A stretch of 64,000 nucleotides of DNA from Chloroflexota bacterium (GTDB lineage: Bacteria > Chloroflexota > UBA11872). Under the pieces are notes generated by a model. It did no database searches. It was not told the DNA's origin and saw only the letters and a program-made list of their open reading frames with translations. This document shows, in pieces, positions 16,011 to 64,000 of this stretch. The translations under genes and the position numbers were made by a program. The number at the start of each line of letters is the position of its first letter. Position 1 is the first letter of the stretch. The stretch spans positions 2,035-66,034 of the forward strand of contig JAPOWQ010000069.1 of the NCBI GenBank assembly GCA_026707585.1, given 5' to 3'.

Positions 16011-16652
16011 CTACCGCCGTTCGTCGTGAGCCCGTCCCGTCTACCCACCGTCCCGAGTCAAACCCCATCCCCACCAGCCTTGCCTGCAATACCCGCAACG
16101 CCTCCGATCAAACGACCCGCCTCCAGATGAGTCGCCTGCGGGCATCGTCCAGACCGACGCCATGAACTTTCCTGCTGACCTTCGGACTGGCGCGATCCGA
16201 AACTGCGGAAAGCGTCTACCCAACTGCGTCTGAAGCCGGCGGCCTCAGGTCAATCCGCATCTCCGCAATCCGTTCCGAATCCCTCGCCACGCCGCGCCGT
16301 TCCAGCACGGCCAGCATGTCCTCCTGCCTCGGCTGACCGAACGCCAGTCGATACAGCGCCAGCGACTCCTGCAACCGTGCCCACCGCTCCTCGTCCCGAC
16401 TCAGCGGAAACGCCATGCTGCGCCGCTGGATCCGCCTTGTGGCCCAGGCTGCGCACAGCCTGGGACCTCCCAAATCCGTTCGCAGTGAGCCGCTCCGGAG
16501 TCTTTCAAAGAGCCTGGCCCGAGCTCTTCGAACGCGGAGGCGAACCGAACTACGAACCAAGACTCTCGACACCCAAGTCTGAACCGCCGCAGAGCGCGTA
16601 GACTGCTTCTCGAAGATCGAAGCATCCAAGTCCATTTGGCGGGGCGGATTTC

Positions 16653-46931: not shown

Positions 46932-47026
46932 GGAGGTGGACGGGGCCGGGTGGTCCTCGCGGTCTTCAAAACCGTTGTGGGGCGCTGGTGAGCGTTCCAG
47001 GTGGGTTCGACTCCCATGCACCTCCG
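46932..47026 (+). tRNA. selC: tRNA-Sec (anticodon UCA)
   Basis: 95 nt. The anticodon arm CGGT-CTTCAAA-ACCG has UCA at 46966-46968. The long variable arm is GGGGCGCT-GGTG-AGCGTTCC (8 bp). The T arm is GTGGG-TTCGACT-CCCAT. The acceptor is GGAGGTG(G)/(G)CACCTCC with discriminator G. The layout parallels E. coli selC. No CCA is encoded. Confidence 0.8.
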
Positions 47027-47172
47027 CCCGGGAGTCCCCTCAGCGAGCGAGGGGCCGCACACACCAACGCGCGGCGCGGCATCCGCGACCGCGCCTGTGT
47101 CTCGCGACGGTCAAGGCTCCCTCAACGCGAGCAGCAGTACCGCCCAAAGTGTCCCAGGACGCTCACCTCGGC

Positions 47173-49289: not shown

Positions 49290-49329
49290 CTGGAGGGGGC
49301 GCTATGCAGCACGGAAGCTGCGGCGCTGC

Positions 49330-49653
49330 CTAGAAGTGCGACTTGTCCGGGTGCCCGTCGATCGGAACCATGTGGTAGCGCACGACATCCGACGGACCGG
49401 CTCGGTGCTCGGCCGCCAGTTCGCTGAAGGCCTTCATGTGCGGCGCGGCCGCGTGGGCCGCCAGGTGTTCCTCCGACTCCCAGCGCTCGATCACGACCAG
49501 GGCGTCGGGATTGTCGATGCCCCGGTGGTACGTGTAGTGCAGGCAACCGTCTTCCTCATGCACGTTGCGCACGTTGTCCTGCATCTTGCGGATCAGTGCG
49601 TCGGTGTGACCCGGCTTCGGGTAGATGGTGGCGACTACGGTGACTTCGGGCAT
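49330..49653 (-). CDS. Antibiotic-biosynthesis-monooxygenase (ABM) domain protein
   Basis: MPEVTVVATIYPKPGH...CLHYTYHRG..DALVVIERWESEEHLAAHAAAPHMKAF is the ferredoxin-like ABM pattern. The ATG is at 49653. Confidence 0.7.
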   Translation of the reverse strand: MPEVTVVATIYPKPGHTDALIRKMQDNVRNVHEEDGCLHYTYHRGIDNPDALVVIERWESEEHLAAHAAAPHMKAFSELAAEHRAGPSDVVRYHMVPIDGHPDKSHF

Positions 49654-49794
49654 TGCGACCCTCCAGGGCGGCACGGAGGCGTGCACGGCGTCGGCAGTGT
49701 AGGGGGCAGAGACGAGTGCGGCGCACCGATCATGCATCCGCTGCCCGACGGCCCGGCTGGGCCGCGGGAATCTCGGATCTAGCCCGCTCGCGGC

Positions 49795-51453: not shown

Positions 51454-51573
51454 GTCGTTCGTCCTTCCGCGCACGCGCTTCGGAGCGGTCGTGCGCCTAC
51501 CGTGACACGCAGCACCCGGCACGGCAACCGGAATAGGCCAACAGCCGATTCCGGCTGGCGTAAGCTCGCGCGC

Positions 51574-51861
51574 ATGTTCCGGGGAGGCCGCTGGCGCCGT
51601 ACGCTTGCAGTCAGCGCACTGGCATTCGGGGTAGTGCTGGCGGGCTCGTTCTTTCTGATCGAGAACGTACGCGCCGCCGGTGCAATCCTCATTGCGGTCA
51701 CCGTTGCCCTCGCCGCCTATCTCGCTCTCAACGCGCCCAACCCAAGCGGACGGCGCGGACAGTCCACGGGGGTGCTGGTGGCCAGCAGTGCCCTGGCAAT
51801 TGCCGTGGGAATCAGCGGGTTCGCTGCGGCCATTCTGCTGGTCGCGCTGAGTCGAACGTAG
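51574..51861 (+). CDS. Small membrane protein (hypothetical, 3 TM segments)
   Basis: The ATG at 51574 gives MFRGGRWRRTLAVSALAFGVVLAGSFFLI..., which is hydrophobic throughout. The longer track ORF from 51091 is antisense to the TPP enzyme. Confidence 0.4.
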   Translation: MFRGGRWRRTLAVSALAFGVVLAGSFFLIENVRAAGAILIAVTVALAAYLALNAPNPSGRRGQSTGVLVASSALAIAVGISGFAAAILLVALSRT

Positions 51862-51952
51862 TCAAAACAAGCCCAAAAAAACCACGCAAAAGCCGAAACT
51901 GGTGCGTCGGTTTGGGCTAGACTTCCAAGAATTTCGACCCCGACATACCACC

Positions 51953-52939
51953 ATGCACCTCACAGCCGAACAACTGGCCGACTTCGACCGTGACGGCTAC
52001 GTCATCGCCCGCGGCATCTTGTCCCCCGTAGAGGACCTGCAACCGGTCATGGACGAGTACGCCGAGATTCTCGACCGGGAAGCCGAGCGGATGTTTCGCG
52101 ACGGCGAGATTTCCAGCACCTATGCCGAGCTGCCCTTCGACCGGCGCACCATCGCCATTACCCGAGAGGCCGGACTGCTGGATCCGCAGGCATTCGACAT
52201 CACGATTCCAATCAACACCGCCCTGCTGAATCGGGAAACCAGGTACCACTTTGGGCCAGCCGTCTTTGCCCTGTTACGCAACGAGCGCTTGCTGGACGCC
52301 GTGGAGTCCCTGATTGGGCCCGAGATCACGTCCAACCCTGTCCAGCACGTGCGGATCAAGCCGCCGGAACGCTTTGTCACGAAGAACGAGGGGACCGGCC
52401 TGGTTACGACCACCGGCTGGCACCAGGACAACGGCGTGGTCCACGAGGAAGCCGACGACACCAACATGCTCACGGTCTGGTTGCCGCTCACCGAAGCTAC
52501 CGAGCGCAACGGGTGCCTGATGGTCGTGCCCGGAAGTTACAAGGACGGCCTGCAGGTGCACTGCACGATGCCCAACGAACGCGGGCTCAAGGCCACCACG
52601 ATTCCAACCCAGTTGATCCCCAAGGAACGCGCCAAGCCGCTGCCGATGTCGCCGGGCGACGTGCTCTTGATGCACAAGGGCTGCATGCACGCGTCGTTGA
52701 CTAACCACAGCGACGACGTCCGCTGGAGCTTTGATCTCAGGTATAACCCCACGGGTCAGTCCACCGGCCGCACCTACTTCCCAAGCTGGGTGGCGCGCAG
52801 CCGCGCGAACCCCGAGACGGAGTTGCGTGACGCGGCGGCCTGGGAACAGTCCTGGGTCGACACGATGAACCGCCTCATGGACAGCCCGGAGCCAATTCGC
52901 GCCCACCGCTGGGACAACAGCCACGAGCTTTGCGCCTGA
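51953..52939 (+). CDS. Phytanoyl-CoA dioxygenase (PhyH) family Fe(II)/2-oxoglutarate oxygenase
   Basis: MHLTAEQLADFDRDGYVIARGIL, WHQDNG (HxD) and a later H in MHKGCMHAS fit the PhyH family. Confidence 0.7.
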   Translation: MHLTAEQLADFDRDGYVIARGILSPVEDLQPVMDEYAEILDREAERMFRDGEISSTYAELPFDRRTIAITREAGLLDPQAFDITIPINTALLNRETRYHFGPAVFALLRNERLLDAVESLIGPEITSNPVQHVRIKPPERFVTKNEGTGLVTTTGWHQDNGVVHEEADDTNMLTVWLPLTEATERNGCLMVVPGSYKDGLQVHCTMPNERGLKATTIPTQLIPKERAKPLPMSPGDVLLMHKGCMHASLTNHSDDVRWSFDLRYNPTGQSTGRTYFPSWVARSRANPETELRDAAAWEQSWVDTMNRLMDSPEPIRAHRWDNSHELCA

Positions 52940-52981
52940 GTCGGCCGACCTGACCGCCAATCGCGGTCGCTCGGGAGGTAT

Positions 52982-53629
52982 CTAGGACGTCGGGCCGTCT
53001 CCGTACGCCAGCGTTTCACGCCAAGCGGCGGCGACTCGCTGTTGTAGATCCTGAAGATCGGTGCTGTTGTCAATACGCCACACCGGACGACCCGGACGGC
53101 GCGCCCTGAACAAGCCTTCCTTGGCGTCGGGCCTGGATTGCACAGCCAGGCGTCGGCGAGCCTCGGCAGCAGAGATTCGGCCGGTGGCCGTCGCGCGCTC
53201 TATCTGAACCTCGGGCGTCGCCTCAACAAGCCATAGCGCGTCCAGCCGATCGACGTTCGGTCCCTCGACGATCTTGATTGCCTCGATCACCGTCGCCGCC
53301 GCCACGGTGGATTCCGCAAGCAGTTCCGCCGTACGCTCGCCGACCCGCGGGTAGATGGTCGCTTCCAATCGGGCGAGTTCGGCCGGATCGTGGAATACGA
53401 TCCGCGCCAATGCCGCCCGGTCGGGGCGGCCGTCCAGCATGACCTCGGCGCCAAACGCGCGCTCGATGCTCAGCGCCAATTCGGGATCATTCGCCAGCAG
53501 GTCGCGCACTGTCTGGTCCGAATCGATCACACGTGCGCCCAACTCACCTGCAATCCGCCCAACGGTCGACTTCCCCGCTCCCAGGTTGCCGGTCAGGCCG
53601 ATCACCCTGTGATGGTCCGGCATCATCAC
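52982..53629 (-). CDS. coaE: Dephospho-CoA kinase
   Basis: VIGLTGNLGAGKSTVGRI is the P-loop at the N-terminus. The size and layout are typical of CoaE. Confidence 0.8.
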   Translation of the reverse strand: MMMPDHHRVIGLTGNLGAGKSTVGRIAGELGARVIDSDQTVRDLLANDPELALSIERAFGAEVMLDGRPDRAALARIVFHDPAELARLEATIYPRVGERTAELLAESTVAAATVIEAIKIVEGPNVDRLDALWLVEATPEVQIERATATGRISAAEARRRLAVQSRPDAKEGLFRARRPGRPVWRIDNSTDLQDLQQRVAAAWRETLAYGDGPTS

Positions 53630-53727
53630 GCCACGCTCCGGCCGCGGTCAGCAGTTCCGATGTCGAGCATACGGCGGCTATTGGACGCTGCCGCCCGCGG
53701 GCGTATGCTTGACCCACGCACACACGT

Positions 53728-53871
53728 GCCTTCGGGGCAGGGTGATCCCGGCGCCAGCGCCGCGAAATTCCCGACCGGCGGTGAGGCCCAGGGCCAAGCC
53801 CGCGAGCTGGCAAACGCTGGCTGATCCGGTGCGAATCCGGAGCCGACGGTACAGTCCGGAAGGGAGAAGGC
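53728..53871 (+). promoter_or_regulatory. FMN riboswitch (RFN element) upstream of the rib operon
   Basis: GCCTTCGGGGCAGGGTGA...AAATTCCCGACCGGCGGTGAGGCCCAGGGCCAAGCCCGCGAGC...GATCCGGTGCGAATCCGGAGCCGACGGTACAGTCCGGAAGGGAGAAGGC matches the conserved RFN core. P1 is GCCTTC/GAAGGC. It lies 125 nt upstream of ribD. Confidence 0.9.
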
Positions 53872-53995
53872 GCCGTGGGCGTGCGACGCGTGCACGCCTG
53901 CGCCCCGGCGGTTTGACGCGTCGGGGGCCCGCGACCTGACGACCGCCCTGAGCGAACGCCATAGCGCCCACGCCGCCGTGAGACACGAGTCCGCC

Positions 53996-55063
53996 ATGGC
54001 TCGTGCCCTGGAAGTGGCGCGCGAGGCGCGGGGCCGCACGCATCCCAATCCCCCGGTTGGCGCCGTGGTCGTCGGCGACGACGGGACGATTCTCGGCGAC
54101 GGCGCCACCCAACCAGCCGGAGGCCACCACGCCGAGGTCATGGCCCTGCGCGCCGCCGGTCCCCGTGCGCGCGGCGCCACGCTGGCCGTCACCCTCGAAC
54201 CCTGCAATCACCACGGGCACACCCCCCCGTGCACAGAGGCGATCCTTCGGGCCGGCATCAACCGCGTAGTCGCGGCGATTCCGGACACCAACCCCGGCGT
54301 ACGTGGCGGCGGCTTCGACTTTCTGCGCGGTCAGGGAGTGCAAGTCGTCACCGGTGTCGGCGCACGCGCGGCCAGCGACCTTGCGCAGGGACATTTCAAG
54401 CTCGCCGAAACCGGCCGGCCCCACGTCACCGCCAAATGGGCTGTGACATCGGACGGCAAGGTCGCCAGGCCGTCCGGCGGCGGTCGGATCACCGGAGACG
54501 CAGCCTGGCGGCTCGTCCACGAAATGCGCGACGCGGCCGATGCCATCATCACCGGCGTCGATTCGATTCTGATCGACGACTCACGTCTCACAGTTCGCCC
54601 TCCCCCTGCCGACGCCCGTCAGCCCCTCCGTGTGATCCTTGACTCGCATGCGCGCACCAGGCCGTCATCTCGAGTTGTTGGTCAGGACGGGAGAGCGCTG
54701 ATTCTGACGACAGCAGCCGCGCCACCGATGCACGTTCGTCAACTCAAAGAAGCCAGCGCTGAGGTGCTGACCTGTGCGCCTTCCGCCGCCGGGCACATCG
54801 ACATCGATGCGGCGCTGGACGTCCTTGGTGCGCTCCGTCTCTCGACCGTGCTGCTCGAAGCCGGACCGACGCTTACCGGTGCGGTACTGGCCGCCGGCGC
54901 TGTCGACAGCCTTGCGGTCTTCGTCGCGCCCTGGACCATGGGGGACGGTCTCTCAGCGCCCGCCGCGGTCGAAACGCTGCTGGCTCGCCCGCAGATGAGC
55001 CGAGTCGGCGAAGACACCCTGTTCGAGGGCGACCTGCATCGCTACGGACCGGCGGTGGACTGA
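53996..55063 (+). CDS. ribD: Bifunctional diaminohydroxyphosphoribosylaminopyrimidine deaminase / 5-amino-6-(5-phosphoribosylamino)uracil reductase
   Basis: NPPVGAVVV, HAEVMAL and TLEPCNHHGHTPPC are the CMP/dCMP deaminase zinc motif. A reductase domain follows. Confidence 0.9.
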   Translation: MARALEVAREARGRTHPNPPVGAVVVGDDGTILGDGATQPAGGHHAEVMALRAAGPRARGATLAVTLEPCNHHGHTPPCTEAILRAGINRVVAAIPDTNPGVRGGGFDFLRGQGVQVVTGVGARAASDLAQGHFKLAETGRPHVTAKWAVTSDGKVARPSGGGRITGDAAWRLVHEMRDAADAIITGVDSILIDDSRLTVRPPPADARQPLRVILDSHARTRPSSRVVGQDGRALILTTAAAPPMHVRQLKEASAEVLTCAPSAAGHIDIDAALDVLGALRLSTVLLEAGPTLTGAVLAAGAVDSLAVFVAPWTMGDGLSAPAAVETLLARPQMSRVGEDTLFEGDLHRYGPAVD

Positions 55064-55064
55064 G

Positions 55065-55715
55065 ATGTTCACCGGCATTGTGGAGGACCTCGGACGCGTG
55101 GTTCACCTCGAGGACGCCGAGGGCCTGCGCCGCTTCACCCTTCGATCGGACATCTGCTCCGACGGAGTACGTGTAGGTGACTCCATCGCCGTCAACGGCG
55201 CCTGCCTGACGGCCGTCAGCGTGGCTGCCAACGAAATATCGGTAGAAGCCATCCCCGAGACCCTGCGACTAACCAACCTCGGCCAGCTCGCCGTCGACAG
55301 TCTCGTCAACCTGGAACGCCCGCTCGCCTACGGCGACCGCATAGGCGGGCACTATGTGCAGGGCCACGTGGACGCTACCGCCGAACTAATCGAGCGCCAA
55401 CCTGACGGCGAGTCAGAAGTCGTGCGATTCACCGTTCCGTCCCGCCTCATGCAATACATCGTCTCCAAGGGCTTCGTAGCCCTCGACGGCGTCAGCCTGA
55501 CCGTGGTTGATCCCCGCGACGCGACCTTCGCGGTCGCTCTTATTCCCCACACCATCCGTTCGGTCACCCTGGGCGCCGCACCCATCGGGTATCGCGCCAA
55601 CCTCGAAGCCGACATCCTGGCCAAGTACGGAAGCGTGCCGGAGCCCGAGGATTCAAGCAGGCCCTCCATCGCCCAGTTGCGCGCGGCCGGCTACCGGCTG
55701 GACGCGACACGATGA
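55065..55715 (+). CDS. ribE: Riboflavin synthase (alpha chain)
   Basis: MFTGIVEDLGRV... with an internal duplicated lumazine-binding repeat (SLTV / CLTA). Confidence 0.9.
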   Translation: MFTGIVEDLGRVVHLEDAEGLRRFTLRSDICSDGVRVGDSIAVNGACLTAVSVAANEISVEAIPETLRLTNLGQLAVDSLVNLERPLAYGDRIGGHYVQGHVDATAELIERQPDGESEVVRFTVPSRLMQYIVSKGFVALDGVSLTVVDPRDATFAVALIPHTIRSVTLGAAPIGYRANLEADILAKYGSVPEPEDSSRPSIAQLRAAGYRLDATR

Positions 55716-56905
55716 CTCGCGACGCGGTTGCCTCGGCGACTGAATGCATCAGGCGGGGCGGCATTGTGGCGGTCGTCGACGACGGCCTGGCGCAGCCGGA
55801 TCTGGACGTTGTGGCAGCCGGTGAGAACCTCCGAGCCGAGACATGGGACCGCCTGCGCGACCTGGGCAACGGCCGGATTTACGCCCCTTCCGCCGCACGG
55901 CGGCTCGACGAACTTGGGCTGTCCGAACAGCCGCCGGGTCCAGAAGACCCCCTGGCGCGCCGACCGGCGCTCGCTGCCTCGGTAGGGCTGGCCGACGCTT
56001 CCGTTGCAGCAGGCGATGAGCAGGCGGTCGCCGTCGTTCGGGCCCTGGCGTCCAATCGCAATGGCGCGGCTTTCCGCTCCCCCGGTCCGGTTACGCCGAT
56101 CCGGGCACGCGAGGGCGGCGTGCTCCGCCGCCTCGGCCATACCGAGGCCGCCGTCGATCTGGCCGTGCTGGCGGGACTCGCGCCCGTGGCGGTGCTTTCG
56201 CACGTCGACACGCCGGACGCCGCAGCCTTCGAGGAACCCTGGCTGCCCTCGACGTCGAGCGATTCACCCATCCCCGTGGTACACATCAGCCAAATCGTCC
56301 ACCACCGGCGAGCCAACGAGCGCGTCGTCTATCAAGTTGCCGCGGCTGAATTGCCGACTTCCCACGGGGCCTACCAGGCTGTGGCCTTTCATGACACGAC
56401 GACCGGGGAAGACCACGTGGCGTTGACGCTGGGCGAACTGAGTGGCGACTCGCCGCCGCTGGTTCGGGTGCACTCGGAGTGCCTGACCGGCGACGTGTTC
56501 GGCTCGATGCGCTGCGATTGCGGCGACCAACTGAACGCGGCCCTGGCGCGAATTGCCGACGAGGGCCGCGGCGTGGTGCTCTATATGCGGCAGGAAGGCC
56601 GTGGCATCGGACTGGCGAACAAGCTGCGGACCTACGAACTGCAAGACCGGGGGCTGGACACCGTGGATGCCAACCGACACCTGGGATTCGCCGCCGACCT
56701 GCGCGACTACGGCGTGGGCGCGCAGATCCTCCGCGAGCTTGGGATCACCGACCTGCGCCTGCTTACCAACAACCCCAAGAAAACTGCGGGCTTCCGCGCC
56801 TACGGACTGAAAGTTGTGGAGCAGTTGGGGCTGGCGGTAGAGCCGGGCGCGCATAACCGCCGATATCTGGAGACCAAACGCGAACGAATGGGGCACGAGC
56901 TATGA
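55712..56905 (+). CDS. ribBA: Bifunctional 3,4-dihydroxy-2-butanone-4-phosphate synthase / GTP cyclohydrolase II
   Basis: The C-terminal VRVHSECLTGDVFGSMRCDCGDQL...LYMRQEGRGIGL is GTP cyclohydrolase II. The N-terminal half is DHBP-synthase-like. It has a 4-nt overlap with ribE. Confidence 0.85.
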   Translation: MTRDAVASATECIRRGGIVAVVDDGLAQPDLDVVAAGENLRAETWDRLRDLGNGRIYAPSAARRLDELGLSEQPPGPEDPLARRPALAASVGLADASVAAGDEQAVAVVRALASNRNGAAFRSPGPVTPIRAREGGVLRRLGHTEAAVDLAVLAGLAPVAVLSHVDTPDAAAFEEPWLPSTSSDSPIPVVHISQIVHHRRANERVVYQVAAAELPTSHGAYQAVAFHDTTTGEDHVALTLGELSGDSPPLVRVHSECLTGDVFGSMRCDCGDQLNAALARIADEGRGVVLYMRQEGRGIGLANKLRTYELQDRGLDTVDANRHLGFAADLRDYGVGAQILRELGITDLRLLTNNPKKTAGFRAYGLKVVEQLGLAVEPGAHNRRYLETKRERMGHEL

Positions 56906-57393
56906 GCGAACGAGCAGACGAAGCGCGAGTGATCGATCCGCCGCTGGACGGCGAGGGGTTGCGTGTCGGCATCGCGGCCGCGCGCTTCAACGAGTTCTTC
57001 GTCGGGCACCTGCTGGAGGCCTGCCAGCGCGAACTGCGGCGGCATGGCGTAGCCGAGGGAGACCAGACGATCGCCTGGGTCCCCGGCTCGTTTGAGCTTC
57101 CGGTAGCGGCCCGTGACCTGATCGACGCCGAAAAGCCCGACGTCGTGATCTGCCTCGGCTGCATCATCCGCGGCGAGACCACCCACTACGACCACGTGGC
57201 CCAGGAATCGGCGCGGGGAATCGCGCAGGTGGCGCTGAACTCGAAGACGCCGGTGATCTACGGGATCGTGACCGCGGAAACGGTGGAGCAGGCCATCAAC
57301 CGCTGCGGCGGCAAGTTCGGCAACCGCGGTGGGGACGCGGCCCTGGCGGCTATCGCCATGGCTCGCAGCCTGGAGCAGATTCGCGGGGTCTAG
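56902..57393 (+). CDS. ribH: 6,7-dimethyl-8-ribityllumazine synthase
   Basis: RVGIAAARFNEFF...WVPGSFELP...G.IIRGETTHYD is the lumazine synthase signature. It has an ATGA overlap with ribBA. Confidence 0.9.
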   Translation: MSERADEARVIDPPLDGEGLRVGIAAARFNEFFVGHLLEACQRELRRHGVAEGDQTIAWVPGSFELPVAARDLIDAEKPDVVICLGCIIRGETTHYDHVAQESARGIAQVALNSKTPVIYGIVTAETVEQAINRCGGKFGNRGGDAALAAIAMARSLEQIRGV

Positions 57394-58559
57394 CTCGGAA
57401 AGTCCTCGAAGGCCTGCGCGGCGGCCTGGATATCGGTGGCGTCGTTGAAGGCGTGGAATGAGAGGCGCACGGCAGAGTAGCCGTCGGCGGCGCGGCAGAG
57501 GATGCGGTGCGCATGCAGGCAGTGCTCCGCCAGCGCCATGCCGTCGGCGCCTTCGAGGCCCACCGTAAAGATGCCTGAACGCGCGTCACCTTGCTCGGGC
57601 GTGCGAATGCTGGCGCCGGGAAGATCGCTGAAGACGGCGCGAGCTTCGGCCGCCAGCTCGGCGCCGCGCTGCTGGACCGCCTCCATACCCAGGTCGCTCA
57701 GAATCTTGATCGAGGCGCGCCAGGCGGCGTAGAGGGCGTAGGGGCGGGCGCCGAATTCATAGCGCTGGGCGTTGTCGTGTAAATGGGCCTCGCCCGGCGG
57801 GAAGCTTGACTGGGATACCGCGCCGGCGCCGCTGCCCCAGGGGCGCAGGCGCTCCTGCGCGTCGCGCCGAACGTACATGGCGCCGACACCGTAGGGGCCC
57901 ATGCTCCACTTGAAGGCGGGGAAGGCGTACACGTCGCAGCCAAGCTGCTGCATGTCCGTCGGTCGCGCACCAAATGACTGGGCGGCGTCCACTACGGTCA
58001 CCACGCCGTGCTCGCGAGCCAGTGCCGAAACCCTGTCGACCGGCAGCACGATGCCGCGTTCGGTGGTCACGTGGCTCAGGCAGAACGCGCGAGTGTTGGG
58101 GGTCATCGCCGCTTCCACGTCGCGGACGAACGCATCGTCGTTGCCGTCGGCTTCGATGGCGACGATCTCCAGGCCAAGCCGGTCCCGCAGCGTCAGCCAG
58201 GCCAGGTAGCCGCTGGGGTGTTCGGCGGCGGTGAGGATCACGCGGTCGCCGCGCTGTAAATCAAGGGCGGCGGCGACGAAGGAGACGGCCTCGGAGACGG
58301 CGCGGATAAGTGCAATCTCGTCGGAGTCGGCGTTGAGCATGGCGGCGATCTCGCCGCGCAGGGCAGCAATCTCCTCGTTGTAGATCTCGCGCAGGTCGGG
58401 GTTGGTAGTGGTCATCACCGCTTCGCGGTCGTACCAGGATTGCTGGAGATCAAGCGTGGCCTGCGGGGTCGGGGCCACGCCGCCGGAGTTGAGGCAGTGG
58501 TAGTGGCGGATGGCCGGGATGGCCTCACGCAGGTCGGCGAGAACGCTGGGGTCAGCCAT
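57390..58559 (-). CDS. Class V aminotransferase-fold PLP enzyme (cysteine desulfurase / epimerase-like)
   Basis: 389 aa. It has the typical class V layout, with FCLSHVTTERG and a FKW..GP.G segment (candidate PLP lysine in AFKWSMGPYG). Confidence 0.7.
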   Translation of the reverse strand: MADPSVLADLREAIPAIRHYHCLNSGGVAPTPQATLDLQQSWYDREAVMTTTNPDLREIYNEEIAALRGEIAAMLNADSDEIALIRAVSEAVSFVAAALDLQRGDRVILTAAEHPSGYLAWLTLRDRLGLEIVAIEADGNDDAFVRDVEAAMTPNTRAFCLSHVTTERGIVLPVDRVSALAREHGVVTVVDAAQSFGARPTDMQQLGCDVYAFPAFKWSMGPYGVGAMYVRRDAQERLRPWGSGAGAVSQSSFPPGEAHLHDNAQRYEFGARPYALYAAWRASIKILSDLGMEAVQQRGAELAAEARAVFSDLPGASIRTPEQGDARSGIFTVGLEGADGMALAEHCLHAHRILCRAADGYSAVRLSFHAFNDATDIQAAAQAFEDFPS

Positions 58560-59637
58560 GGGTCGGGGGTACGTCGACCCAGCGGCGGGTCCGGGCGGCT
58601 TCGAGGGCGCTGTCGATGACTTCCTGGGTGCGCAGGCCGTCCATGAGCGTGGGCGGCACGTCGCGGTCCTCGCGGATGGAGTCCACGAAGCCGCGCATCA
58701 TGCGCTCGCCGAAGAAGGCCAGGATGCCGGCGTGGTCGGCATCGTCCAGGGGCAGACCGGGGTCAACGAGTTCGGGCTCCTGACCCACCCGGTTGATCGT
58801 GGCCTGCAACACACAGTCGGTCAGTACACCGGCCTCGGTGCCGTTGATCAGGAAGCTGCTGCGGCCCAGCGGCAGGTGCGAGTCCACGGCGCCGACGCGG
58901 CTGGTGGAAATCGTGCCGTGGGCGCCGCTGGCGAAGCGGACGCTGAGCACTGCATCGTCATCCAGCGTGAGCGGTACCTCGGCGCCGGTCTCGGGATCCA
59001 GGGCGTGGGGCCTTACGGTGTTCAGGTCGGCGGCCACGGCGGTGATCGGACCTGCCAGGAATTGGGCCAGGTCAATCATGTGGCTGCCAAGGTCGCCCAG
59101 GACACCGCTGCGACCACGGGTTGGGTCGTAGCGCCATTCCATGACTGGCACGTCGCCCAGCAGGCGTCGATTGAAACGCTGGCAGTGGACGCTGACGAGC
59201 TGGCCCAGTTCGCCGGCCTGGACCATGGCGGAAATGCGCTCGATCAGGGGATTCCAGCGCAGGGTGAAGCCGACGCCGGTTCGGACGCCGGCGGACATGG
59301 CGGCCATGTACATCTCACGGGCCTGCATGGCGTCGAGGGATATTGGCTTCTCGACGAAGACGTGCTTGCCGGCCTGGATGCAGGCCATGGTCTGTGCGTA
59401 GTGCTGGTCGTCGGGTGAGGTGATGACTACGGCGTCGACGGACGGGTCGGCGAGCAGGGCGTGCTCGTCGGGATAGACGGACGGAACGCCGTGGGCGGCG
59501 GCGACGGCGGAGGCGCGTCGTTGGTTGGGTCCCGCGATGGCGGTGACGCGGGCGTTGGGAACCTGGCCGAGGCCGGAGAGGTGGGCGGCGGCCATGAAGC
59601 CGTAGCCGACCATGCCCACGCCAACGGTCTCAGGCAC
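58552..59637 (-). CDS. Gfo/Idh/MocA-family NAD(P)-dependent oxidoreductase
   Basis: VGVGMVGYGFMAAAH is the Rossmann motif, followed by EKP (VFVEKPISL). The GTG at 59637 gives an 8-nt overlap with the upstream gene, but the start is uncertain. Confidence 0.75.
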   Translation of the reverse strand: MPETVGVGMVGYGFMAAAHLSGLGQVPNARVTAIAGPNQRRASAVAAAHGVPSVYPDEHALLADPSVDAVVITSPDDQHYAQTMACIQAGKHVFVEKPISLDAMQAREMYMAAMSAGVRTGVGFTLRWNPLIERISAMVQAGELGQLVSVHCQRFNRRLLGDVPVMEWRYDPTRGRSGVLGDLGSHMIDLAQFLAGPITAVAADLNTVRPHALDPETGAEVPLTLDDDAVLSVRFASGAHGTISTSRVGAVDSHLPLGRSSFLINGTEAGVLTDCVLQATINRVGQEPELVDPGLPLDDADHAGILAFFGERMMRGFVDSIREDRDVPPTLMDGLRTQEVIDSALEAARTRRWVDVPPTHG

Positions 59638-60490
59638 CGGTGGACTCCCCAAAGGCGGCAGCGGCCACCGCCAGCATATGACGGCGGGCGCGTCCGAGTT
59701 CGACATCAATGGCGTCGGCGCCGGAAACGTCGACGCGTTCGTTGGTCAGGGTGCCGTTGAAACCGGCGGCGGCGAGTTTGGCGAGCACGGCCTGGTGGTC
59801 GATATCACCGTCGCCGGGGGTCCGGAAGACGGGGGCTGCGCGGGGACCGACGTGGTCTTTCATGATGAGCTGGCGGCAGAGGCCGGCGACGGGCTTGATG
59901 TCCTCCACCGGGTCCAGCCCCTCGTAGTAGTGGACGTTGCCGGTGTCGTAGCAGACGCCGACGGCGGGCGAGTTGAAGCGGTCGTGCAGCTCGCGGAGGG
60001 CGGCGCCGTGCTTGCCGACGCCGGTGTGCGGCTTGGGGAGGAGCAGGACGCCGGCGTCCTCGGCGGCGCGGACACCGGGCTCGAAGGCGGCGTAGAAGCC
60101 ATCCACTTCGGCCTGCCAGGCGGAGCCGGACTTGGGGCGGTCTGGGAAGCCATCGGCCGGGTATTCGTAGGGGCCCCAGCAGACGAGGGCGGGGACGCCG
60201 GATTCCGCGGCGAGCTCGATGGCCTTGAGAAAACGTTCGGGTTCGCCGGGGTCGGAGGTGACGCCGCCGTGAGACTTGTGGTCGACCTGGAGGCCAGCAT
60301 CGAGGGCCGGCTGGACGGCGGCGCGGGCCGCGGCGGCATCCGCGCCGTCGGGCCAGAGGGGGCCCTCGTCGTGGCGGTCGTAGAGGCCGACGTGGGTGAA
60401 GCCGGCGCGGGCGATGCCGGCGTAGGCGCGGCGGCGGGTGAGGCCGTCGCGGGCGTAGGGGATGGTGAGGGCGGCGAGGCGGTAGGGCAT
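59630..60490 (-). CDS. Sugar phosphate isomerase/epimerase (xylose-isomerase-like TIM barrel)
   Basis: From the ATG at 60490: MPYRLAALTIPYARDGL...GFTHVGLY...VCYDTGNVHYYEG...HLIMKD-like segments typical of AP endonuclease 2/TIM-barrel isomerases. Confidence 0.65.
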   Translation of the reverse strand: MPYRLAALTIPYARDGLTRRRAYAGIARAGFTHVGLYDRHDEGPLWPDGADAAAARAAVQPALDAGLQVDHKSHGGVTSDPGEPERFLKAIELAAESGVPALVCWGPYEYPADGFPDRPKSGSAWQAEVDGFYAAFEPGVRAAEDAGVLLLPKPHTGVGKHGAALRELHDRFNSPAVGVCYDTGNVHYYEGLDPVEDIKPVAGLCRQLIMKDHVGPRAAPVFRTPGDGDIDHQAVLAKLAAAGFNGTLTNERVDVSGADAIDVELGRARRHMLAVAAAAFGESTGA

Positions 60491-60577
60491 GGGCGTGCAT
60501 TGCTCCGGGGCGCGGCTTGGGTCAATCGTGCCGGTGTGGGGTGGGCTGTCAAACGGGGACGGCTGGAAGTGGGGACC

Positions 60578-60802
60578 TCGCGCGCAATAAGAGTTTTTTC
60601 CAAAAAACTCTTGAGGCGCGGCGGGGTGCATTTTGGCCGAGTTCGGGACGCGTCAGGGGAGGGCATGAATCCCGGTCTGCGCGGGTATGGCGGGTGGTGG
60701 AGTTGGGAGGGCAGGGGAGGGGCTCCGGGGGAGGGGTTGCGTTTGGTACATGGATAGTGTACACTGGGCGAGAACGAAGGGCAAGCGGTTGGCGGTCAGG
60801 GG
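60578..60802 (-). repeat. Bipartite promoter/palindrome cassette, copy B (module 2 at 60578-60637, G-rich spacer, module 1 at 60709-60802)
   Basis: It is the reverse complement of copy A, with only a few substitutions in the 94-bp and 60-bp modules. It contains the palindrome AAGAGTTTTTTCCAAAAAACTCTT (60589-60612) and the TTGCCC-17-TACACT promoter (minus strand, 60784-60756). Confidence 0.85.
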
Positions 60803-60908
60803 CAGACCGCCGGCACACCAAGGCGGGATCGGGTAGGCGGTTGTACTTGCAGGGGGGAGCGGGGCGCGTTGTAATTCGTTGGGCGGAATCGCGTGTGAGG
60901 GAAAGTTC

Positions 60909-62132
60909 ATGGCGCCGGCTGGGCTTGCGTGGCTTGACTATTCGGAGACCGACCAGCGACGGGCTAGGGAAATCATCAGGTTCATTACGCAGCCCGAGAG
61001 TCGCGACGAGCTGGGGCTCGGGCGGATCCGGGACGCGCTGAGCGACACGCTGTTTCCGGGAACCTCGTTCCTGCTCACGCGCGCCCGGTACCTGCTGTTC
61101 GTGCCCTGGCTGTATCGCGAGGGGGCGCGCCGGGGACACGGCGGCCCGAAGCTCACGCAGTGGGTCGAATGGAACGAACGGCAGCTCATCGGCGCACTGC
61201 ATCGCGGCGGAGATCGCGAGGGACTGATCGGCCGGTACGCGGGGGCCGCGGTTCGAATCCTCCCGTCGAGCGTTTACTGGCACAGCCTGCGGCGATTCGG
61301 CATCTTGCGGCGCGACGGAACGGAGGGCCAGGTCGCCGGTCTTCGCCAGATTGCGCGCCCGCAGGACGAAGCGACCGAATTCCTCGAACACTCGGACGCG
61401 GTGTGGGCGCCCTCGATTCCGGCGGCTCCAGGCGACTTCTTCACCTACGAGAGTTGCAACTTCGCCCTGACGCACGACGAGGCGACCTGGCTGGCCGAGC
61501 GGATCGTCGACGCGGTGCCCGAGAGCCTGCTCCAGTTCCTGGTGATGCGAGGGAAGCGCCACCCGGACAGCACCAGATATGCCTGGGAGGATCCCGAGGC
61601 TGTCGCATCGATAGGACCGGTCCGGGAGGCGCTGGACGAGGCTCGCCGGTTTTCCGTCGCGATGCATGGGGCCTCGTTGCTCTACAACCTGTTGCTGGCC
61701 GAACGGGCCGAGGAACTTGGTCTGGCCGGAAACGAGGGAAGACGTGACCGATACACGGCCCGGCTTGACGAGTGGCAGGAGGATTCTGAAGCAATCAACC
61801 CGGGGGCCTGGGATCTGAACCGGCTGTGGGCGCTCGTCGCTGTGCAGGGGAGGCCCGCCGCGCTGGCAACGCGCACCTTCGTGTCCGAGTGGGTCGACAT
61901 TGCGCACGGGAGCACGGGCACGCGGCTGGCGGACGACGGCAATGCGCGGGAGCTCATTCGGAGACGGGAACACCTGCAGAAGCGAGGCCAGGCGCGGCTC
62001 AGCAACGACAAGCTCATGCGGCAGTGGGGCGGCGCATCCGGATCCGGCCGCCTCACGTTCCGGTGGCCGGTCGTCAGGCGAATCCTGAATGAGATCGTGG
62101 AGGGAAAGGCGGACGGTCGTGCTGGCGCCTGA
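60909..62132 (+). CDS. Conserved hypothetical protein, first gene of the PLD-nuclease operon (I recall similar proteins labelled DUF6361; unverified)
   Basis: 407 aa from the ATG at 60909. LAWLDYSETDQRRAREIIRFITQPESRDELGLGRIRDALSDTLFPGTSFLLTRARYLLFVPWLY has no catalytic motif that I recognise. Its stop overlaps the next ORF. Confidence 0.6.
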   Translation: MAPAGLAWLDYSETDQRRAREIIRFITQPESRDELGLGRIRDALSDTLFPGTSFLLTRARYLLFVPWLYREGARRGHGGPKLTQWVEWNERQLIGALHRGGDREGLIGRYAGAAVRILPSSVYWHSLRRFGILRRDGTEGQVAGLRQIARPQDEATEFLEHSDAVWAPSIPAAPGDFFTYESCNFALTHDEATWLAERIVDAVPESLLQFLVMRGKRHPDSTRYAWEDPEAVASIGPVREALDEARRFSVAMHGASLLYNLLLAERAEELGLAGNEGRRDRYTARLDEWQEDSEAINPGAWDLNRLWALVAVQGRPAALATRTFVSEWVDIAHGSTGTRLADDGNARELIRRREHLQKRGQARLSNDKLMRQWGGASGSGRLTFRWPVVRRILNEIVEGKADGRAGA

Positions 62133-63921
62133 CAGCCGGGCGCTGCTGCTCGACGCGCTGCGACCGCCCGCGGGCTACTCGCTGGACCGGGCCGTCGCGA
62201 CGACGTTTACGCTCGATCTGGAAACGGCTCTGACGGTTCCCCTGGCGTTCGCCGGTTTTCGATTGGAGGAACAGCCCGATCCCATCGAGGTGATGCAGTC
62301 ACTGCGCGGGATGAGCGAACGGCTGGATATTTTCTGCCAGGCCGGCGCGATTGGCGCCAGCCGGTGGCCATCAGATCTGCTGGCGCTGCTCGAAGACGTG
62401 GTCCACCCGGTTCGGCGCCCCAGGCCGGGCCACATCTTCCATCCGAAGACCTGGGTGCTGCGATTCCGCGGCGAAGCCCAGGAACTCTCGTATCGACTGC
62501 TGGTGCTCTCCCGAAATCTCACCGCCGATCGCAGCTGGGACACGATTCTCTGGCTCGATGGCAGGCGTGCGGGACGGATCAACCACGGTAATGCGCCGTT
62601 GGTTCGATTTGTTCGCGCGCTGCGCGGGCTGGCCGTGACGCCGTTGTCTCAAGGCCGTCACGCGGTCTTGACCGAGCTTGCCGAGGAGTTGCGGCGGGTC
62701 GAGTGGGAGTTGCCGAACGGCGTTCGCGAGGTGCGTTTCCATCCGATCGGACTCCGGTATTCGCGCCGGTTTCCCGTCGAGGAGCACTTTCGCGGGTATC
62801 GAAAGCTGGTGATTTCACCATTCGTCCGCAAAGGCGCGATTCGGCGGATCTTCCAGCGACGGGCCGGCCATACGGAAGTGCTCATCTCGCGTGGCACGGA
62901 GCTAGAGACGCTGCCGACGGACGTTCTGGACAACGTGGACGTCTTCGAACTCGATCCGACAGCGAGCCTCGCCGGCGATTTCGACGACGGAGAGACGAAC
63001 CAGAGCTTCCTGACGCAGCTGCACGCCAAGGTCTTTGCGGTCGAGCGCGACAAGCGCGCGCATCTCTTCGTGGGCTCGGCCAATGCGACGGACGCGGGAT
63101 TGAGCCAGAACGTCGAGTTCCTCTGTGAGCTCGTCGGTGCGGCAAAGACGCTTGGGGTCGACGCGCTGGTGGGCGAAGACGCGCCGCTGCGGGCCATGTT
63201 GACGCCGTATGAACCCTCGACGGGGCCACCAGACAACGGCAACGGCGCGGACAGCCGAGCGCTGGACGATCTACTTCTCGACATTGCGGGGGGAGTGCGC
63301 TTCCAGACAGCCGTCAGGAAGGCAACCGAGGGCTGGGTCGCTCGCATAACGTCCGACTCAGCGCCGCGGCGCATCCCCGATGGGGCCTGCGTCACGATCG
63401 CGCCCCACAACCGTCCGGATGAGACTTTTCCCCTCAGTCAACAAGATCCCGTTGACGCCTGTCTGCCGCCCCGTGAACTCGCGGATATCACGGCATTTCT
63501 GCGGCTCACGGCGAGCCGGAGGGTCAAGGGGACGTTGCTGAAGCGCTCGACGGTCGTCTGCTCGCAACTCGAGGGATCGCCCGACGACCGCTTTCGCCAA
63601 ATCCTGGCGCGGCAGATCGACACGCCGGAGAAGTTCCTGCGGCTGCTCGCGCTGCTTATCGGCTTCGCGTCCGGAATCGGCGCCGATGTCAGCGCGACCG
63701 GCGGCGGGTCGGCAAGCTGGTCGGGAGGTCCCGGGCAAGGCGTCCTGGAGCTGCTGGCGCGCGCCCTGGCGGAGAATCCCGAGTCCATCGATCACCTGGA
63801 CGAGATCATTGAGCACCTGAGGCAGTCACCCCACGCGCCAGAGATCCTGCCGCAGGGTTGGGACGACGTGTGGCTGCCGGTGCTGGAGGCGCGGCGCGCG
63901 ATGCGCGGGGACGCTTCGTGA
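62089..63921 (+). CDS. Phospholipase-D-superfamily nuclease with two HKD motifs
   Basis: HKD 1 is FH118PK120TWVLRF...LVLS141RN143. HKD 2 is LH312AK314VFAVERDKRAHLFVG329SAN332ATDAG. The start is the ATG at 62089 or the GTG at 62119, and both overlap the upstream gene. Its stop overlaps the next start (GTGA). Confidence 0.8.
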   Translation: MRSWRERRTVVLAPDSRALLLDALRPPAGYSLDRAVATTFTLDLETALTVPLAFAGFRLEEQPDPIEVMQSLRGMSERLDIFCQAGAIGASRWPSDLLALLEDVVHPVRRPRPGHIFHPKTWVLRFRGEAQELSYRLLVLSRNLTADRSWDTILWLDGRRAGRINHGNAPLVRFVRALRGLAVTPLSQGRHAVLTELAEELRRVEWELPNGVREVRFHPIGLRYSRRFPVEEHFRGYRKLVISPFVRKGAIRRIFQRRAGHTEVLISRGTELETLPTDVLDNVDVFELDPTASLAGDFDDGETNQSFLTQLHAKVFAVERDKRAHLFVGSANATDAGLSQNVEFLCELVGAAKTLGVDALVGEDAPLRAMLTPYEPSTGPPDNGNGADSRALDDLLLDIAGGVRFQTAVRKATEGWVARITSDSAPRRIPDGACVTIAPHNRPDETFPLSQQDPVDACLPPRELADITAFLRLTASRRVKGTLLKRSTVVCSQLEGSPDDRFRQILARQIDTPEKFLRLLALLIGFASGIGADVSATGGGSASWSGGPGQGVLELLARALAENPESIDHLDEIIEHLRQSPHAPEILPQGWDDVWLPVLEARRAMRGDAS

Positions 63922-64000
63922 CTGACACGACCCCCGGGGGCCAGAAACTCGGGCTCAGCGACTTTCAGCGAGCGACGGCGAAGCACGCATTTCAGCGGCT
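63918..64000 (+). CDS. 5' end of a third, translationally coupled ORF (truncated by window end)
   Basis: The GTG at 63918 overlaps the PLD stop (GTGA). It reads VTDTTPGGQKLGLSDFQRATAKHAFQR.. and stays open to base 64000. Its identity cannot be determined from 27 codons. Confidence 0.5.
   Translation, partial: MTDTTPGGQKLGLSDFQRATAKHAFQR

What the first reader, a model, noticed from the sequence alone, without database searches (positions are those of the whole stretch)
60909..64000. Translationally coupled operon of an unknown 407-aa protein, a two-HKD PLD nuclease and a truncated third gene: second candidate defence system
**Seen.** Three same-strand ORFs have overlapping stops and starts. 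The PLD start (ATG 62089 or GTG 62119) overlaps the first gene, and there is a GTGA overlap at 63918.

**Gene content (seen).**
- The middle protein has two HKD motifs: H118-x-K120 with S-R-N, and H312-x-K314 with G-S-A-N. This matches PLD-family nucleases (Nuc/BfiI/DrmC type).
- The first protein has no catalytic motif.
- The third gene is cut by the window after 27 codons.

**Established.** PLD nucleases serve as effectors in several anti-phage systems, such as DISARM DrmC and Mokosh.

**Memory only, unverified.**
- Proteins like the first gene are annotated DUF6361.
- They usually precede a PLD protein and a large helicase.
- That trio may correspond to the Azaca (ZacABC) type.

**Other points.** Unlike the 16.6-23.3 kb island, GC here is genome-like (68% at 61501-61560). 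No methyltransferase is visible within the window.
Basis: partly seen in the sequence, partly recalled or inferred. Interest (0 to 1): 0.7.

Follow-up and report, generated by a model that had tools for sequence, protein, structure and literature searches.

The report
Azaca anti-phage operon, cut short
The three overlapping genes at the end of the window are an ordinary copy of Azaca (ZacA-ZacB-ZacC), an already described bacterial anti-phage system, with its third gene (the helicase) cut off by the window edge.

Summary

**Identification**
- Gene 1 (60909-62132) is a full-length DUF6361/ZacA protein (PADLOC ZacA E 1.6e-121).
- Gene 2 is a full-length ZacB PLD-family nuclease (E 8.1e-160). Both HxK...N motifs are invariant across 43 homologues of 32-91% identity.
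- The 27 codons of gene 3 match 20/27 the N-terminus of a 1066-aa ZacC SF2 helicase. That gene follows zacB with the same 4-nt overlap in all close relatives.
- 70 of 82 related loci carry the full zacA-zacB-zacC triad.

**Correction**
- The likely ZacB start is GTG 62119, giving 600 aa and a 14-nt overlap, not ATG 62089.

**Mechanism (from a 2025 preprint on a Bacillus Azaca)**
- All three proteins are needed to cut phage T4 DNA.
- The PLD site and the ZacC Walker A motif are both required.

**What could not be shown**
- ZacC could not be seen beyond 64000; no public contig extends the window.
- ZacA gives a confident all-helical model with no known structural relative.

**Extra finding**
- In close relatives, Azaca sits where this window has a Menshen + type IIG restriction island (16.4-23.9 kb).
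- A 69-codon zacC relic survives at that site (16228-16434, minus strand).

**Verdict:** a known system, a new member in Chloroflexota, and low novelty.

The parts
60847..60875 (+). Promoter-like element TTGCAG-N17-TGTAAT upstream of zacA
   Evidence: ACTTGCA and TGTAAT/TATAAT are conserved, with the same spacing, in loci whose further upstream sequence is unrelated (alignments). The first hexamer matches consensus at only 3/6, so the consensus scan missed it. Promoter function is inferred, not shown.
60897..60901 (+). Shine-Dalgarno-like GAGGG, 7 nt before ATG 60909
   Evidence: Read directly from the sequence. GTGTGAGGnAA-GTTCATG is conserved in relatives. This supports ATG 60909 rather than TTG 60879 as the zacA start.
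60909..62132 (+). zacA: 407-aa DUF6361 protein, the required third subunit with no known biochemical activity
   Evidence: Pfam DUF6361 E 1.4e-72, profile positions 4-385/388. PADLOC ZacA E 1.6e-121, 5-394/396. dN/dS against relatives is 0.23-0.33. The AF2 model has pLDDT 79.8 and pTM 0.80 and is all-helical. Foldseek found no match in PDB or BFVD; best E 0.23 and 0.85.
62119..63921 (+). zacB: PLD-family nuclease with two HxK...N motifs, 600 aa from GTG 62119 (alternative ATG 62089 gives 610 aa); overlaps zacA by 14 nt
   Evidence: PADLOC ZacB E 8.1e-160, 2-583/586. Both motifs are invariant in 43 homologues. A family profile hits the PLD nucleases SauUSI (7clg_A, E 5.1e-5), BfiI (2c1l), NucT and Zucchini-like 4ggj at the second motif. 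Pfam PLDc_2 scores only 20 bits, below its cut-off of 27. dN/dS is 0.18-0.21.
63918..64000 (+). zacC 5' end: the first 27 codons of the SF2 helicase-like ATPase; GTGA overlap with the zacB stop; cut by the window before the Walker A motif
   Evidence: 20/27 residues are identical to the N-terminus of the 1066-aa gene in the same position in L002. That gene scores 1091 bits on PADLOC ZacC, 12-1016/1019, and has Pfam DEAD and Helicase_C domains. The 27 residues alone hit no profile.
16228..16434 (-). Relic of a second Azaca locus: the last 69 codons of a zacC gene, at the site where relatives carry their whole Azaca operon
   Evidence: tblastn gives 83% identity to L002 ZacC residues 995-1063. 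The enclosing ORF 16216-16635 hits PADLOC ZacC E 2.1e-19, positions 942-1016/1019. Flank synteny with L003, L005 and L011 supports the location.

Best explanation
Window 60792-64000 is the promoter-proximal part of an Azaca (ZacABC) anti-phage operon in a Chloroflexota genome.

**Proposed mechanism**
- The three genes are translated as a coupled unit, with a 14-nt overlap and a 4-nt overlap, and their products form one complex.
- ZacB is the effector. Its two HxK...N half-sites sit in one polypeptide and are expected to fold into a single PLD-type active site. That site cuts DNA through a phosphohistidine intermediate.
- ZacC is a ~1066-aa SF2 helicase-like ATPase that licenses or drives cleavage by ATP binding or hydrolysis.
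- ZacA is an all-helical protein of a fold with no solved relative. It is an obligatory subunit whose role is probably structural or in target recognition.
- No methyltransferase belongs to the system. Self DNA is therefore probably spared because the complex recognises a feature of phage DNA, rather than because host DNA is marked. The tested Bacillus system prefers hypermodified T4 DNA. [quoted passage not shown]

**Shown here**
- Gene identities.
- Conservation of the catalytic motifs.
- Operon architecture.
- Purifying selection.
- Presence of ZacC in relatives.

**Taken from one preprint on a Bacillus homologue**
- The three-subunit requirement.
- The need for the PLD site and the Walker A motif.
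- The preference for T4 DNA.

**Inferred**
- That this copy is complete and active.
- The modification-sensing logic.
- The role of ZacA.
For: **Identity**
- PADLOC ZacA 1.6e-121 and ZacB 8.1e-160, both full length. Pfam DUF6361 1.4e-72.

**Third gene**
- Relatives with 87-91% identical ZacB carry a 1066-aa gene with the same 4-nt overlap.
- That gene hits PADLOC ZacC at 1091 and 1085 bits.
- Its N-terminus matches the window's 27 codons 20/27.

**Architecture**
- 70 of 82 non-redundant loci from many phyla have all three full-length genes in this order.
- The modal overlaps are 14 or 8 nt, and 4 nt.
- The same triad is annotated on a Rhizobium conjugative plasmid.

**Catalytic residues**
- Both HxK...N motifs are invariant in 43 homologues.
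- A family profile reaches SauUSI, BfiI, NucT and Zucchini-like PLD nucleases.

**Selection**
- dN/dS is 0.18-0.33 against relatives.

**Expression signals**
- A conserved promoter-like element and Shine-Dalgarno sequence lie upstream.

**Function (bioRxiv 10.1101/2025.07.10.664194)**
- Azaca gives more than 1e6-fold protection against T4.
- Only ZacA+B+C together cut T4 DNA.
- The nuclease mutant and the ZacC Walker A mutant are both dead.
- The cut sites are degenerate (A/NT).

**No cognate methylase**
- Neighbours at 47988-60631 are housekeeping genes: the riboflavin operon, an aminotransferase, an oxidoreductase and a TIM-barrel protein.
Against: - ZacC is not visible beyond 27 codons. The Walker A and all helicase motifs lie outside the window.
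- The source contig could not be extended.
- The same window holds a decayed zacC relic at another site. Azaca loss does therefore happen in this lineage.
- All functional data come from one preprint on a distant Bacillus homologue. The family members most distant from the window share only about 32-35% ZacB identity with it.
- Modification dependence is only suggested there, not demonstrated.
- ZacA point mutants in that study had no effect.
- Pfam PLDc_2 is below its threshold (20 against 27 bits), and both motifs lack the canonical Asp.
Confidence: 0.85

Rival explanations
1. The locus is an Azaca remnant rather than a working system. zacA and zacB are intact, but zacC is truncated, disrupted or chimeric beyond the window edge, for example as the result of the rearrangement that put the cassette at this site.
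For: - A zacC 3' relic lies at 16228-16434, exactly where relatives carry Azaca.
- Relative L087 shares the housekeeping flank (84-87% nt identity over window 49984-60552) but has no Azaca there, so this copy is a lineage-specific insertion or relocation.
- A few related loci do have broken zacB or zacC: L061 and L072.
Against: - zacA and zacB keep every family-invariant residue.
- Both genes show dN/dS of 0.18-0.33.
- The upstream promoter-like region is conserved.
- 70 of 82 loci are complete.
- The zacB/zacC junction and the first 27 codons are intact.
Confidence: 0.1
2. It is a working Azaca, but it does not act as a modification-dependent restriction enzyme. Instead the helicase senses another infection cue, such as free DNA ends, replication intermediates or a phage protein. 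The nuclease then degrades DNA indiscriminately, possibly including host DNA in an abortive-infection manner.
For: - BmAzaca cut sites are highly degenerate.
- The T4 modification cue is offered in the preprint only as a possibility.
- Related nuclease-helicase systems such as Hachiman sense DNA integrity rather than sequence (abstract of PMC12278908, listed).
- No recognisable modified-base reader domain (SRA, EVE or similar) was found in ZacA or ZacB.
Against: - In vitro, BmAzaca showed a clear preference for T4 DNA over the other DNAs tested. This held without any infection cue, using purified proteins only.
- Protection in vivo is narrow (T-even phages), which fits a DNA-feature trigger.
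Confidence: 0.25
3. It belongs to another PLD-containing defence system (DISARM DrmC with DrmA/DrmD helicase, or Mokosh), or it is a housekeeping phospholipase D or cardiolipin-synthase-like enzyme, as the public annotation 'phospholipase D family protein' suggests.
For: - ZacB gives weak DrmC hits at the second HKD motif: PADLOC E 2e-4 to 0.03, and NCBIfam DISARM_DrmC_I 22.5 bits.
- The relatives' ZacC gives weak DrmD, DrmA, DpdE and BrxH hits at the C-terminal helicase motif.
Against: - NCBIfam DrmC scores 22.5 bits against a cut-off of 133.
- The ZacB and ZacC profiles win by hundreds of bits and cover the full length.
- There is no DrmB (DUF1998), no DrmMI/MII methylase and no Mko protein nearby.
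- The obligatory DUF6361 partner and helicase partner argue against lipid metabolism.
Confidence: 0.02

Closest known systems
Azaca (ZacA/ZacB/ZacC), defined by Millman et al. 2022; the Bacillus 'BmAzaca' and 'KpAzaca' operons were studied biochemically in bioRxiv 10.1101/2025.07.10.664194
   Same: - Same three protein families, in the same order and on the same strand.
- Full-length profile matches for ZacA and ZacB in the window, and for ZacC in close relatives.
- The PLD motifs are conserved.
- There is no associated methyltransferase.
   Different: - The host is a high-GC Chloroflexota lineage rather than Bacillus or Klebsiella. The closest named relatives are Chloroflexota and Dehalococcoidia MAGs.
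- zacC is not visible in this window.
- The locus stands next to housekeeping genes, not inside a defence island.
- Nothing here has been tested experimentally.
[quoted passage not shown]
   Same: - It combines a PLD-family nuclease with an SF2 helicase-like ATPase.
- It has no methyltransferase.
- It attacks modified (5mC/5hmC) foreign DNA.
- The ZacB family profile finds the SauUSI PLD motif as its best solved relative (E 5.1e-5).
   Different: - SauUSI is a single 953-aa polypeptide with one HKD per chain that dimerises, and it carries a dedicated target-recognition domain.
- Azaca is split into three proteins.
- ZacB carries two HxK motifs in one chain, plus a C-terminal region of about 250 residues that matched no Pfam family.
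- ZacA has no counterpart in SauUSI.
- The similarity is limited to about 50 residues. This is a 'works like' comparison, not membership.
DISARM DrmC (PLD nuclease) with DrmA/DrmD helicases
   Same: A PLD-family protein is encoded next to a large SF2 helicase in a defence context. There are weak local hits at the second HKD motif and at the helicase C-terminal motif.
   Different: - The score is far below the family cut-off: 22.5 against 133 bits.
- There is no DrmB and no methylase.
- DrmC is about 240 aa with one HKD, whereas ZacB is 600 aa with two.
PADLOC candidate system PDC-M27 (M27B/M27C)
   Same: The relatives' ZacC hits PDC-M27C at 1e-23 to 3e-13. ZacB gives a marginal PDC-M27B hit at E 0.067. 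This may be a distant PLD-plus-helicase cousin.
   Different: The matches are local only (about 60 residues) and far weaker than those to the Zac profiles. Not examined further.

Membership tests
Azaca (ZacABC) | ZacA: a DUF6361-family protein of about 400 aa encoded first | tested here: met
   PADLOC ZacA E 1.6e-121, 5-394/396. Pfam PF19888 E 1.4e-72 against a cut-off of 25 bits.
Azaca (ZacABC) | ZacB: a PLD-family protein of about 600 aa with two conserved HxK...N catalytic motifs | tested here: met
   PADLOC ZacB E 8.1e-160, 2-583/586. Both motifs are present and invariant in 43 homologues.
Azaca (ZacABC) | ZacC: an SF2 helicase-like ATPase of about 1000-1100 aa with a Walker A motif, encoded third | tested here: inconclusive
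   Only 27 codons lie in the window, and they hit no profile. They match 20/27 the N-terminus of the 1066-aa ZacC of close relatives. The Walker A motif (GLGKT, about residue 45-49 in L002) lies beyond 64000. Extension failed.
Azaca (ZacABC) | Co-directional zacA-zacB-zacC operon with overlapping gene junctions | tested here: met
   The window has overlaps of 14 nt and 4 nt. The same values are modal in 82 related loci: 14 nt in 35, 8 nt in 27, and 4 nt in 59 of 77.
Azaca (ZacABC) | Protects against phage; DNA cleavage needs all three subunits, the PLD site and the ZacC Walker A motif | not testable with these tools
   Known only for BmAzaca and KpAzaca (bioRxiv 10.1101/2025.07.10.664194).
DISARM (DrmC) | The protein reaches the DrmC family threshold and is accompanied by DrmA, DrmB and a DrmM methylase | tested here: not met
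   NCBIfam DISARM_DrmC_I scores 22.5 bits against a cut-off of 133. The neighbours are housekeeping genes.
Mokosh | MkoA/MkoB (or fused MkoC) profiles match | tested here: not met
   No Mko profile appears among the PADLOC hits at E up to 1 for the window's proteins, or at E up to 0.1 for the relatives' ZacC.
PLD superfamily nucleases (Nuc/BfiI/SauUSI type) | HxK(x)4D(x)6G(G/S)xN motif recognisable by the family profile | tested here: inconclusive
   Pfam PLDc_2 scores 20 bits, below its cut-off of 27, and on the second motif only. A ZacB family profile reaches SauUSI at E 5.1e-5, and BfiI, NucT and 4ggj at E 0.09-0.7. His, Lys, Gly-Ser and Asn are invariant, but the Asp position holds Arg in motif 1 and Glu in motif 2.

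The most novel reading that the evidence does not exclude
Two readings go beyond the known description and are not excluded by the evidence.
- **Mobile cassette.** In this Chloroflexota lineage Azaca may behave as a self-contained cassette of about 6.5 kb with its own promoter, moving between chromosomal sites.
  - It has been displaced from a shared defence hot spot by Menshen plus a type IIG enzyme, leaving a zacC stub.
  - A copy sits about 44 kb away next to housekeeping genes.
- **ZacA as sensor.** ZacA, a confident all-helical fold with no structural relative, may be the subunit that reads a phage-DNA feature. That would make Azaca a three-part, ATP-dependent type IV restriction machine built around a new kind of sensor.
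Probability: 0.2. Interest if true: 0.45.

Novelty: new member of a known kind. Interest (0 to 1): 0.2.

Why it matters
**Practical value**
- This candidate 'second defence system' can be annotated as Azaca and dropped from the list of unknowns.

**Modest wider value**
- Azaca is abundant in uncultured Chloroflexota and Dehalococcoidia. Relatives occur in at least 580 species-level genomes and on 46 plasmids.
- The work supplies a corrected ZacB start codon and family-invariant residues for mutagenesis.
- ZacA (DUF6361) folds confidently but resembles nothing solved. Its role remains the open question in Azaca biology.
- The locus documents one defence cargo (Azaca) replaced by another (Menshen plus a type IIG enzyme) at a conserved hot spot, with a molecular scar left behind.

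Tried and rejected
**Extending the window beyond 64000 (failed)**
- The exact ZacA and ZacB proteins were returned only on a 3.1-kb Logan contig that ends 48 nt after zacB.
- The last 62 nt of the window have no exact match in genome contigs or metagenome contigs.
- The exact 333-aa neighbour protein is not on record.

**Structure and remote homology (no relatives found)**
- The first AF2 run of ZacA used a shallow alignment (63-91% identity) and was unusable at pLDDT 52.9.
- A more diverse alignment gave pLDDT 79.8.
- Foldseek then found nothing in PDB (best E 0.23, TM 0.2 or less) or in BFVD.
- Sequence and profile searches of PDB with ZacA gave only chance hits.
- A single-sequence search of PDB with ZacB also gave nothing. 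Only the family profile reached PLD nucleases.

**Other searches**
- Rfam on 56000-64000 gave one sub-threshold CRISPR-DR9 hit inside a coding region (20.7 bits against 45, E 0.78). I take it as chance.
- The consensus promoter and terminator scan found no promoter. Its one terminator-like hairpin lies inside zacB, no more than expected by chance.

**Ideas considered and dropped**
- DISARM, Mokosh and lipid-metabolism readings were rejected on scores and context.
- I considered whether the relic at 16.2 kb and the copy at 60.8 kb come from different Azaca lineages. The relic is about 200 nt, and its identities to relatives (81-89%) are within sampling error. No conclusion can be drawn.
Full report
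**1.

ORF listing and direct reading show three plus-strand genes.
- Gene A runs from ATG 60909 to TGA 62132 (407 aa). A GAGGG Shine-Dalgarno-like sequence sits 7 nt upstream of the ATG.
- Gene B runs to TGA 63921, from either ATG 62089 (610 aa) or GTG 62119 (600 aa).
- Gene C starts at GTG 63918. It overlaps the gene B stop as GTGA and is cut by the window after 27 codons.

L-S-R-N, and H312-A-K314 ... G-S-A-N, in 610-aa numbering.

GC is genome-like: 66.5% for the operon, 65.6% for the window and 60.0% for the 16.4-23.9 kb island.

**2. What the genes are**

- Gene A is a full-length DUF6361 protein (Pfam E 1.4e-72) and matches the PADLOC ZacA profile end to end (E 1.6e-121).
- Gene B matches PADLOC ZacB end to end (E 8.1e-160).
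- Generic PLD models only graze gene B's second motif.
  - Pfam PLDc_2 scores 20 bits, below its cut-off of 27.
  - DrmC profiles score E 2e-4 or worse, and NCBIfam DrmC scores 22.5 against 133 bits.
- The 27 residues of gene C are too short for any profile.

The window could not be extended, so I used relatives.
- Contigs encoding ZacB proteins 91% and 87% identical to the window's carry a 1066-aa gene at the same position, with the same 4-nt overlap.
- That gene hits PADLOC ZacC at 1091 and 1085 bits over 12-1016/1019.
- It has Pfam DEAD and Helicase_C ends.
- It begins VTDTTSRGHELRLSDFQRATAEHAFRR, against the window's VTDTTPGGQKLGLSDFQRATAKHAFQR, which is 20/27 identical.

**3. The family is large and the architecture is fixed**

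- ZacB has 3117 representatives at E 0.001 or better in the 50%-clustered library.
- A scan of species-representative genomes found at least 580 encoding a relative.
  - The closest are Chloroflexota and Dehalococcoidia MAGs at 61-91% identity.
  - Further relatives occur in many Actinomycetota, Proteobacteria, Bacillota, Planctomycetota and others.
- In 82 non-redundant loci, 70 have all three genes full-length, in this order and on one strand. Most exceptions are contig ends.
- The zacA/zacB overlap is 14 nt in 35 loci and 8 nt in 27. The zacB/zacC overlap is 4 nt in 59 of 77. The window has 14 and 4.
- This overlap pattern, the homologue N-termini and the PADLOC profile register all indicate GTG 62119 as the real ZacB start. 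The motifs are then H108/K110 and H302/K304.
- ZacB relatives also sit on 46 plasmids. A Rhizobium conjugative plasmid is annotated 'DUF6361 family protein', 'phospholipase D family protein', 'helicase-related protein', with overlapping junctions.
- Phage genomes essentially lack it.

**4. The catalytic site and selection**

- Across 43 ZacB homologues of 32-91% identity, the invariant residues include:
  - F107-H108-P109-K110, W112 and R132-N133;
  - H302-A303-K304, G319-S320, N322-A323-T324, N331 and E333.
- Both half-sites are therefore under strict constraint. The canonical Asp is replaced by Arg in motif 1 and by Glu in motif 2.
- A profile of this alignment finds PLD nucleases in the PDB at the second motif:
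  - 7clg_A at E 5.1e-5, which is the SauUSI structure (7CLG is cited in PMC7913695);
  - BfiI (2c1l), NucT and the Zucchini-like 4ggj.
- dN/dS between the window and two relatives is 0.23-0.33 for zacA and 0.18-0.21 for zacB. This is consistent with genes in use.

**5. ZacA**

- No solved structure is related by sequence or by profile.
- AlphaFold2 with a shallow alignment failed at pLDDT 52.9.
- With 21 added sequences of 35-47% identity it gave pLDDT 79.8 and pTM 0.80.
  - The protein is all-helical.
  - Residues 1-31 and 144-162 are predicted with low confidence (pLDDT below 50).
- Foldseek found no significant match in PDB (best E 0.23) or in BFVD (best E 0.85).
- ZacA thus remains a protein of unknown activity, with a fold that has no characterised relative.

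**6. How it most likely works**

The only biochemical study I found is bioRxiv 10.1101/2025.07.10.664194. It reports the following.
- Azaca operons give more than 1e6-fold protection against T4 and protect against T-even phages.
- Purified BmAzaca prefers T4 DNA, which carries glucosyl-hydroxymethylcytosine.
- Only ZacA+ZacB+ZacC together cleave.
- The nuclease mutant and the ZacC Walker A mutant are inactive.
- Mutations of conserved ZacA residues had no effect.
- Cut sites are degenerate (A/NT).

Combined with the absence of any methyltransferase beside the operon, the best-supported model is an ATP-dependent PLD nuclease-motor complex. It would recognise a property of phage DNA, rather than the absence of a host mark.
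- This is functionally akin to the type IV enzyme SauUSI (PMC3141236, PMC7913695), but split into three proteins.
- For this window, gene identity, motifs, architecture and selection are shown.
- Activity, completeness and the target cue are inferred.

**7. Context, and a finding outside the given coordinates**

- *Neighbourhood.* Upstream of the operon are housekeeping genes: ribD, ribE and ribBA, an aminotransferase, a Gfo/Idh/MocA oxidoreductase and a TIM-barrel protein. This is not a defence island.
- *Cassette boundary.* Homology with the relatives' Azaca loci starts at 60792, 117 nt before zacA. That stretch includes a conserved TTGCAG-N17-TGTAAT element.
- *Different flanks in relatives.* The flanks of Azaca in the relatives match a different part of this window, on the other strand.
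  - L005 upstream corresponds to window 30075 to 23909.
  - L003, L005 and L011 downstream correspond to window 16430 to about 7800.
- *What occupies that site here.* In those genomes Azaca occupies the site where this window has its 16.4-23.9 kb segment. That segment encodes:
  - Menshen NsnA, NsnB and NsnC (E 7e-112, 1e-101 and 5e-122);
  - a 1131-aa type IIG/ISP-like restriction-methylase.
- *The scar.* At the edge of that segment, 16228-16434 on the minus strand still encodes the last 69 residues of a ZacC.
  - It is 83% identical to L002 ZacC.
  - It hits PADLOC ZacC at E 2.1e-19.
- *The 60.8-kb site in a relative.* A metagenomic relative that shares the housekeeping flank of the 60.8-kb site has ordinary genes where the window has Azaca: GNAT, M32 peptidase, SurE, SDR, ThrRS and Obg (L087, 84-87% nt identity).
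- *Interpretation.* Azaca was replaced at a shared hot spot and is present at a lineage-specific second site. Whether that copy moved within the genome or was acquired separately cannot be decided.

**8. Verdict**

- The finding is real and correctly interpreted, but it is a described system.
- It is a new member of a known kind, in a Chloroflexota host.
- The one caveat is that zacC is inferred rather than seen.
- Interest is low (0.2). The residual interest lies in the unknown role and fold of ZacA, and in the hot-spot replacement scar.

Noticed in passing
window 16228-16434 (minus strand), inside ORF 16216-16635: A 69-codon relic of the 3' end of a zacC gene (83% identical to a relative's ZacC C-terminus; PADLOC ZacC E 2.1e-19). 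It lies exactly where relatives L003, L005 and L011 carry their complete Azaca operon. It is a scar of Azaca replacement at a conserved hot spot between a DUF1801 gene (window 24008-24451) and an adh_short gene (about 14980-15796).
   Followed up: yes
Menshen comprises NsnA at 16653-17768 (GmrSD_N), NsnB at 17743-18894 (AAA_15/AAA_21 ATPase) and NsnC at 18800-19843, all on the plus strand. A 1131-aa type IIG/ISP-like restriction-methylase lies at 19880-23275 on the minus strand (N6_Mtase plus Type_ISP_C).
   Followed up: partly
window 12302-12383, 12517-12598, 14559-14640, 14785-14866 (82-nt family); 12648-12766, 14465-14583, 14692-14810 (119-nt family): Dispersed intergenic repeats containing two short hairpins (CACCCTCTCC...GGAGAGG and TTCCGGCG...CGCCGGAA), resembling REP or MITE elements. 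Copies also occur next to the Azaca locus of relatives (L002 8003-8108; L003 9302-9469 and 11071-11155), so they flank the defence hot spot.
   Followed up: partly
L002 8136-8399, L003 1229-1492, L005 7387-7650: Relatives carry a conserved 87-aa ORF about 400 nt upstream of zacA, with a coiled-coil N-terminus and a hydrophobic C-terminus. It has no significant family match (weak DUF2730 hit at E 0.0035). It is absent from the window by tblastn. L005 also has a 120-aa ORF and a 210-aa ORF of unknown family flanking its Azaca.
   Followed up: partly
L087 1-10000 (LXNI01000895.1) compared with window beyond 60552: A relative collinear with window 49984-60552 (84-87% nt identity) has GNAT, M32 carboxypeptidase, SurE, SDR, ThrRS and Obg genes where the window has Azaca. 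The cassette at 60.8 kb is therefore a lineage-specific insertion or relocation, and its right-hand boundary lies outside the window.
   Followed up: partly
window 60741-60767: A motif GTTTGGTACATGGATAGTGTACACTGG, containing the palindrome GTGTACAC, lies between the TIM-barrel gene and the conserved Azaca leader. Similar sequences occur further upstream of zacA in L002 and L011 (GTTTACACAGGTGGTGTACACTGG). It could be an operator or a junction sequence.
   Followed up: no
window 46932-47028 (plus strand): A tRNA-Sec gene (anticodon TCA) is the only tRNA in the window. It is not adjacent to either defence locus.
   Followed up: no
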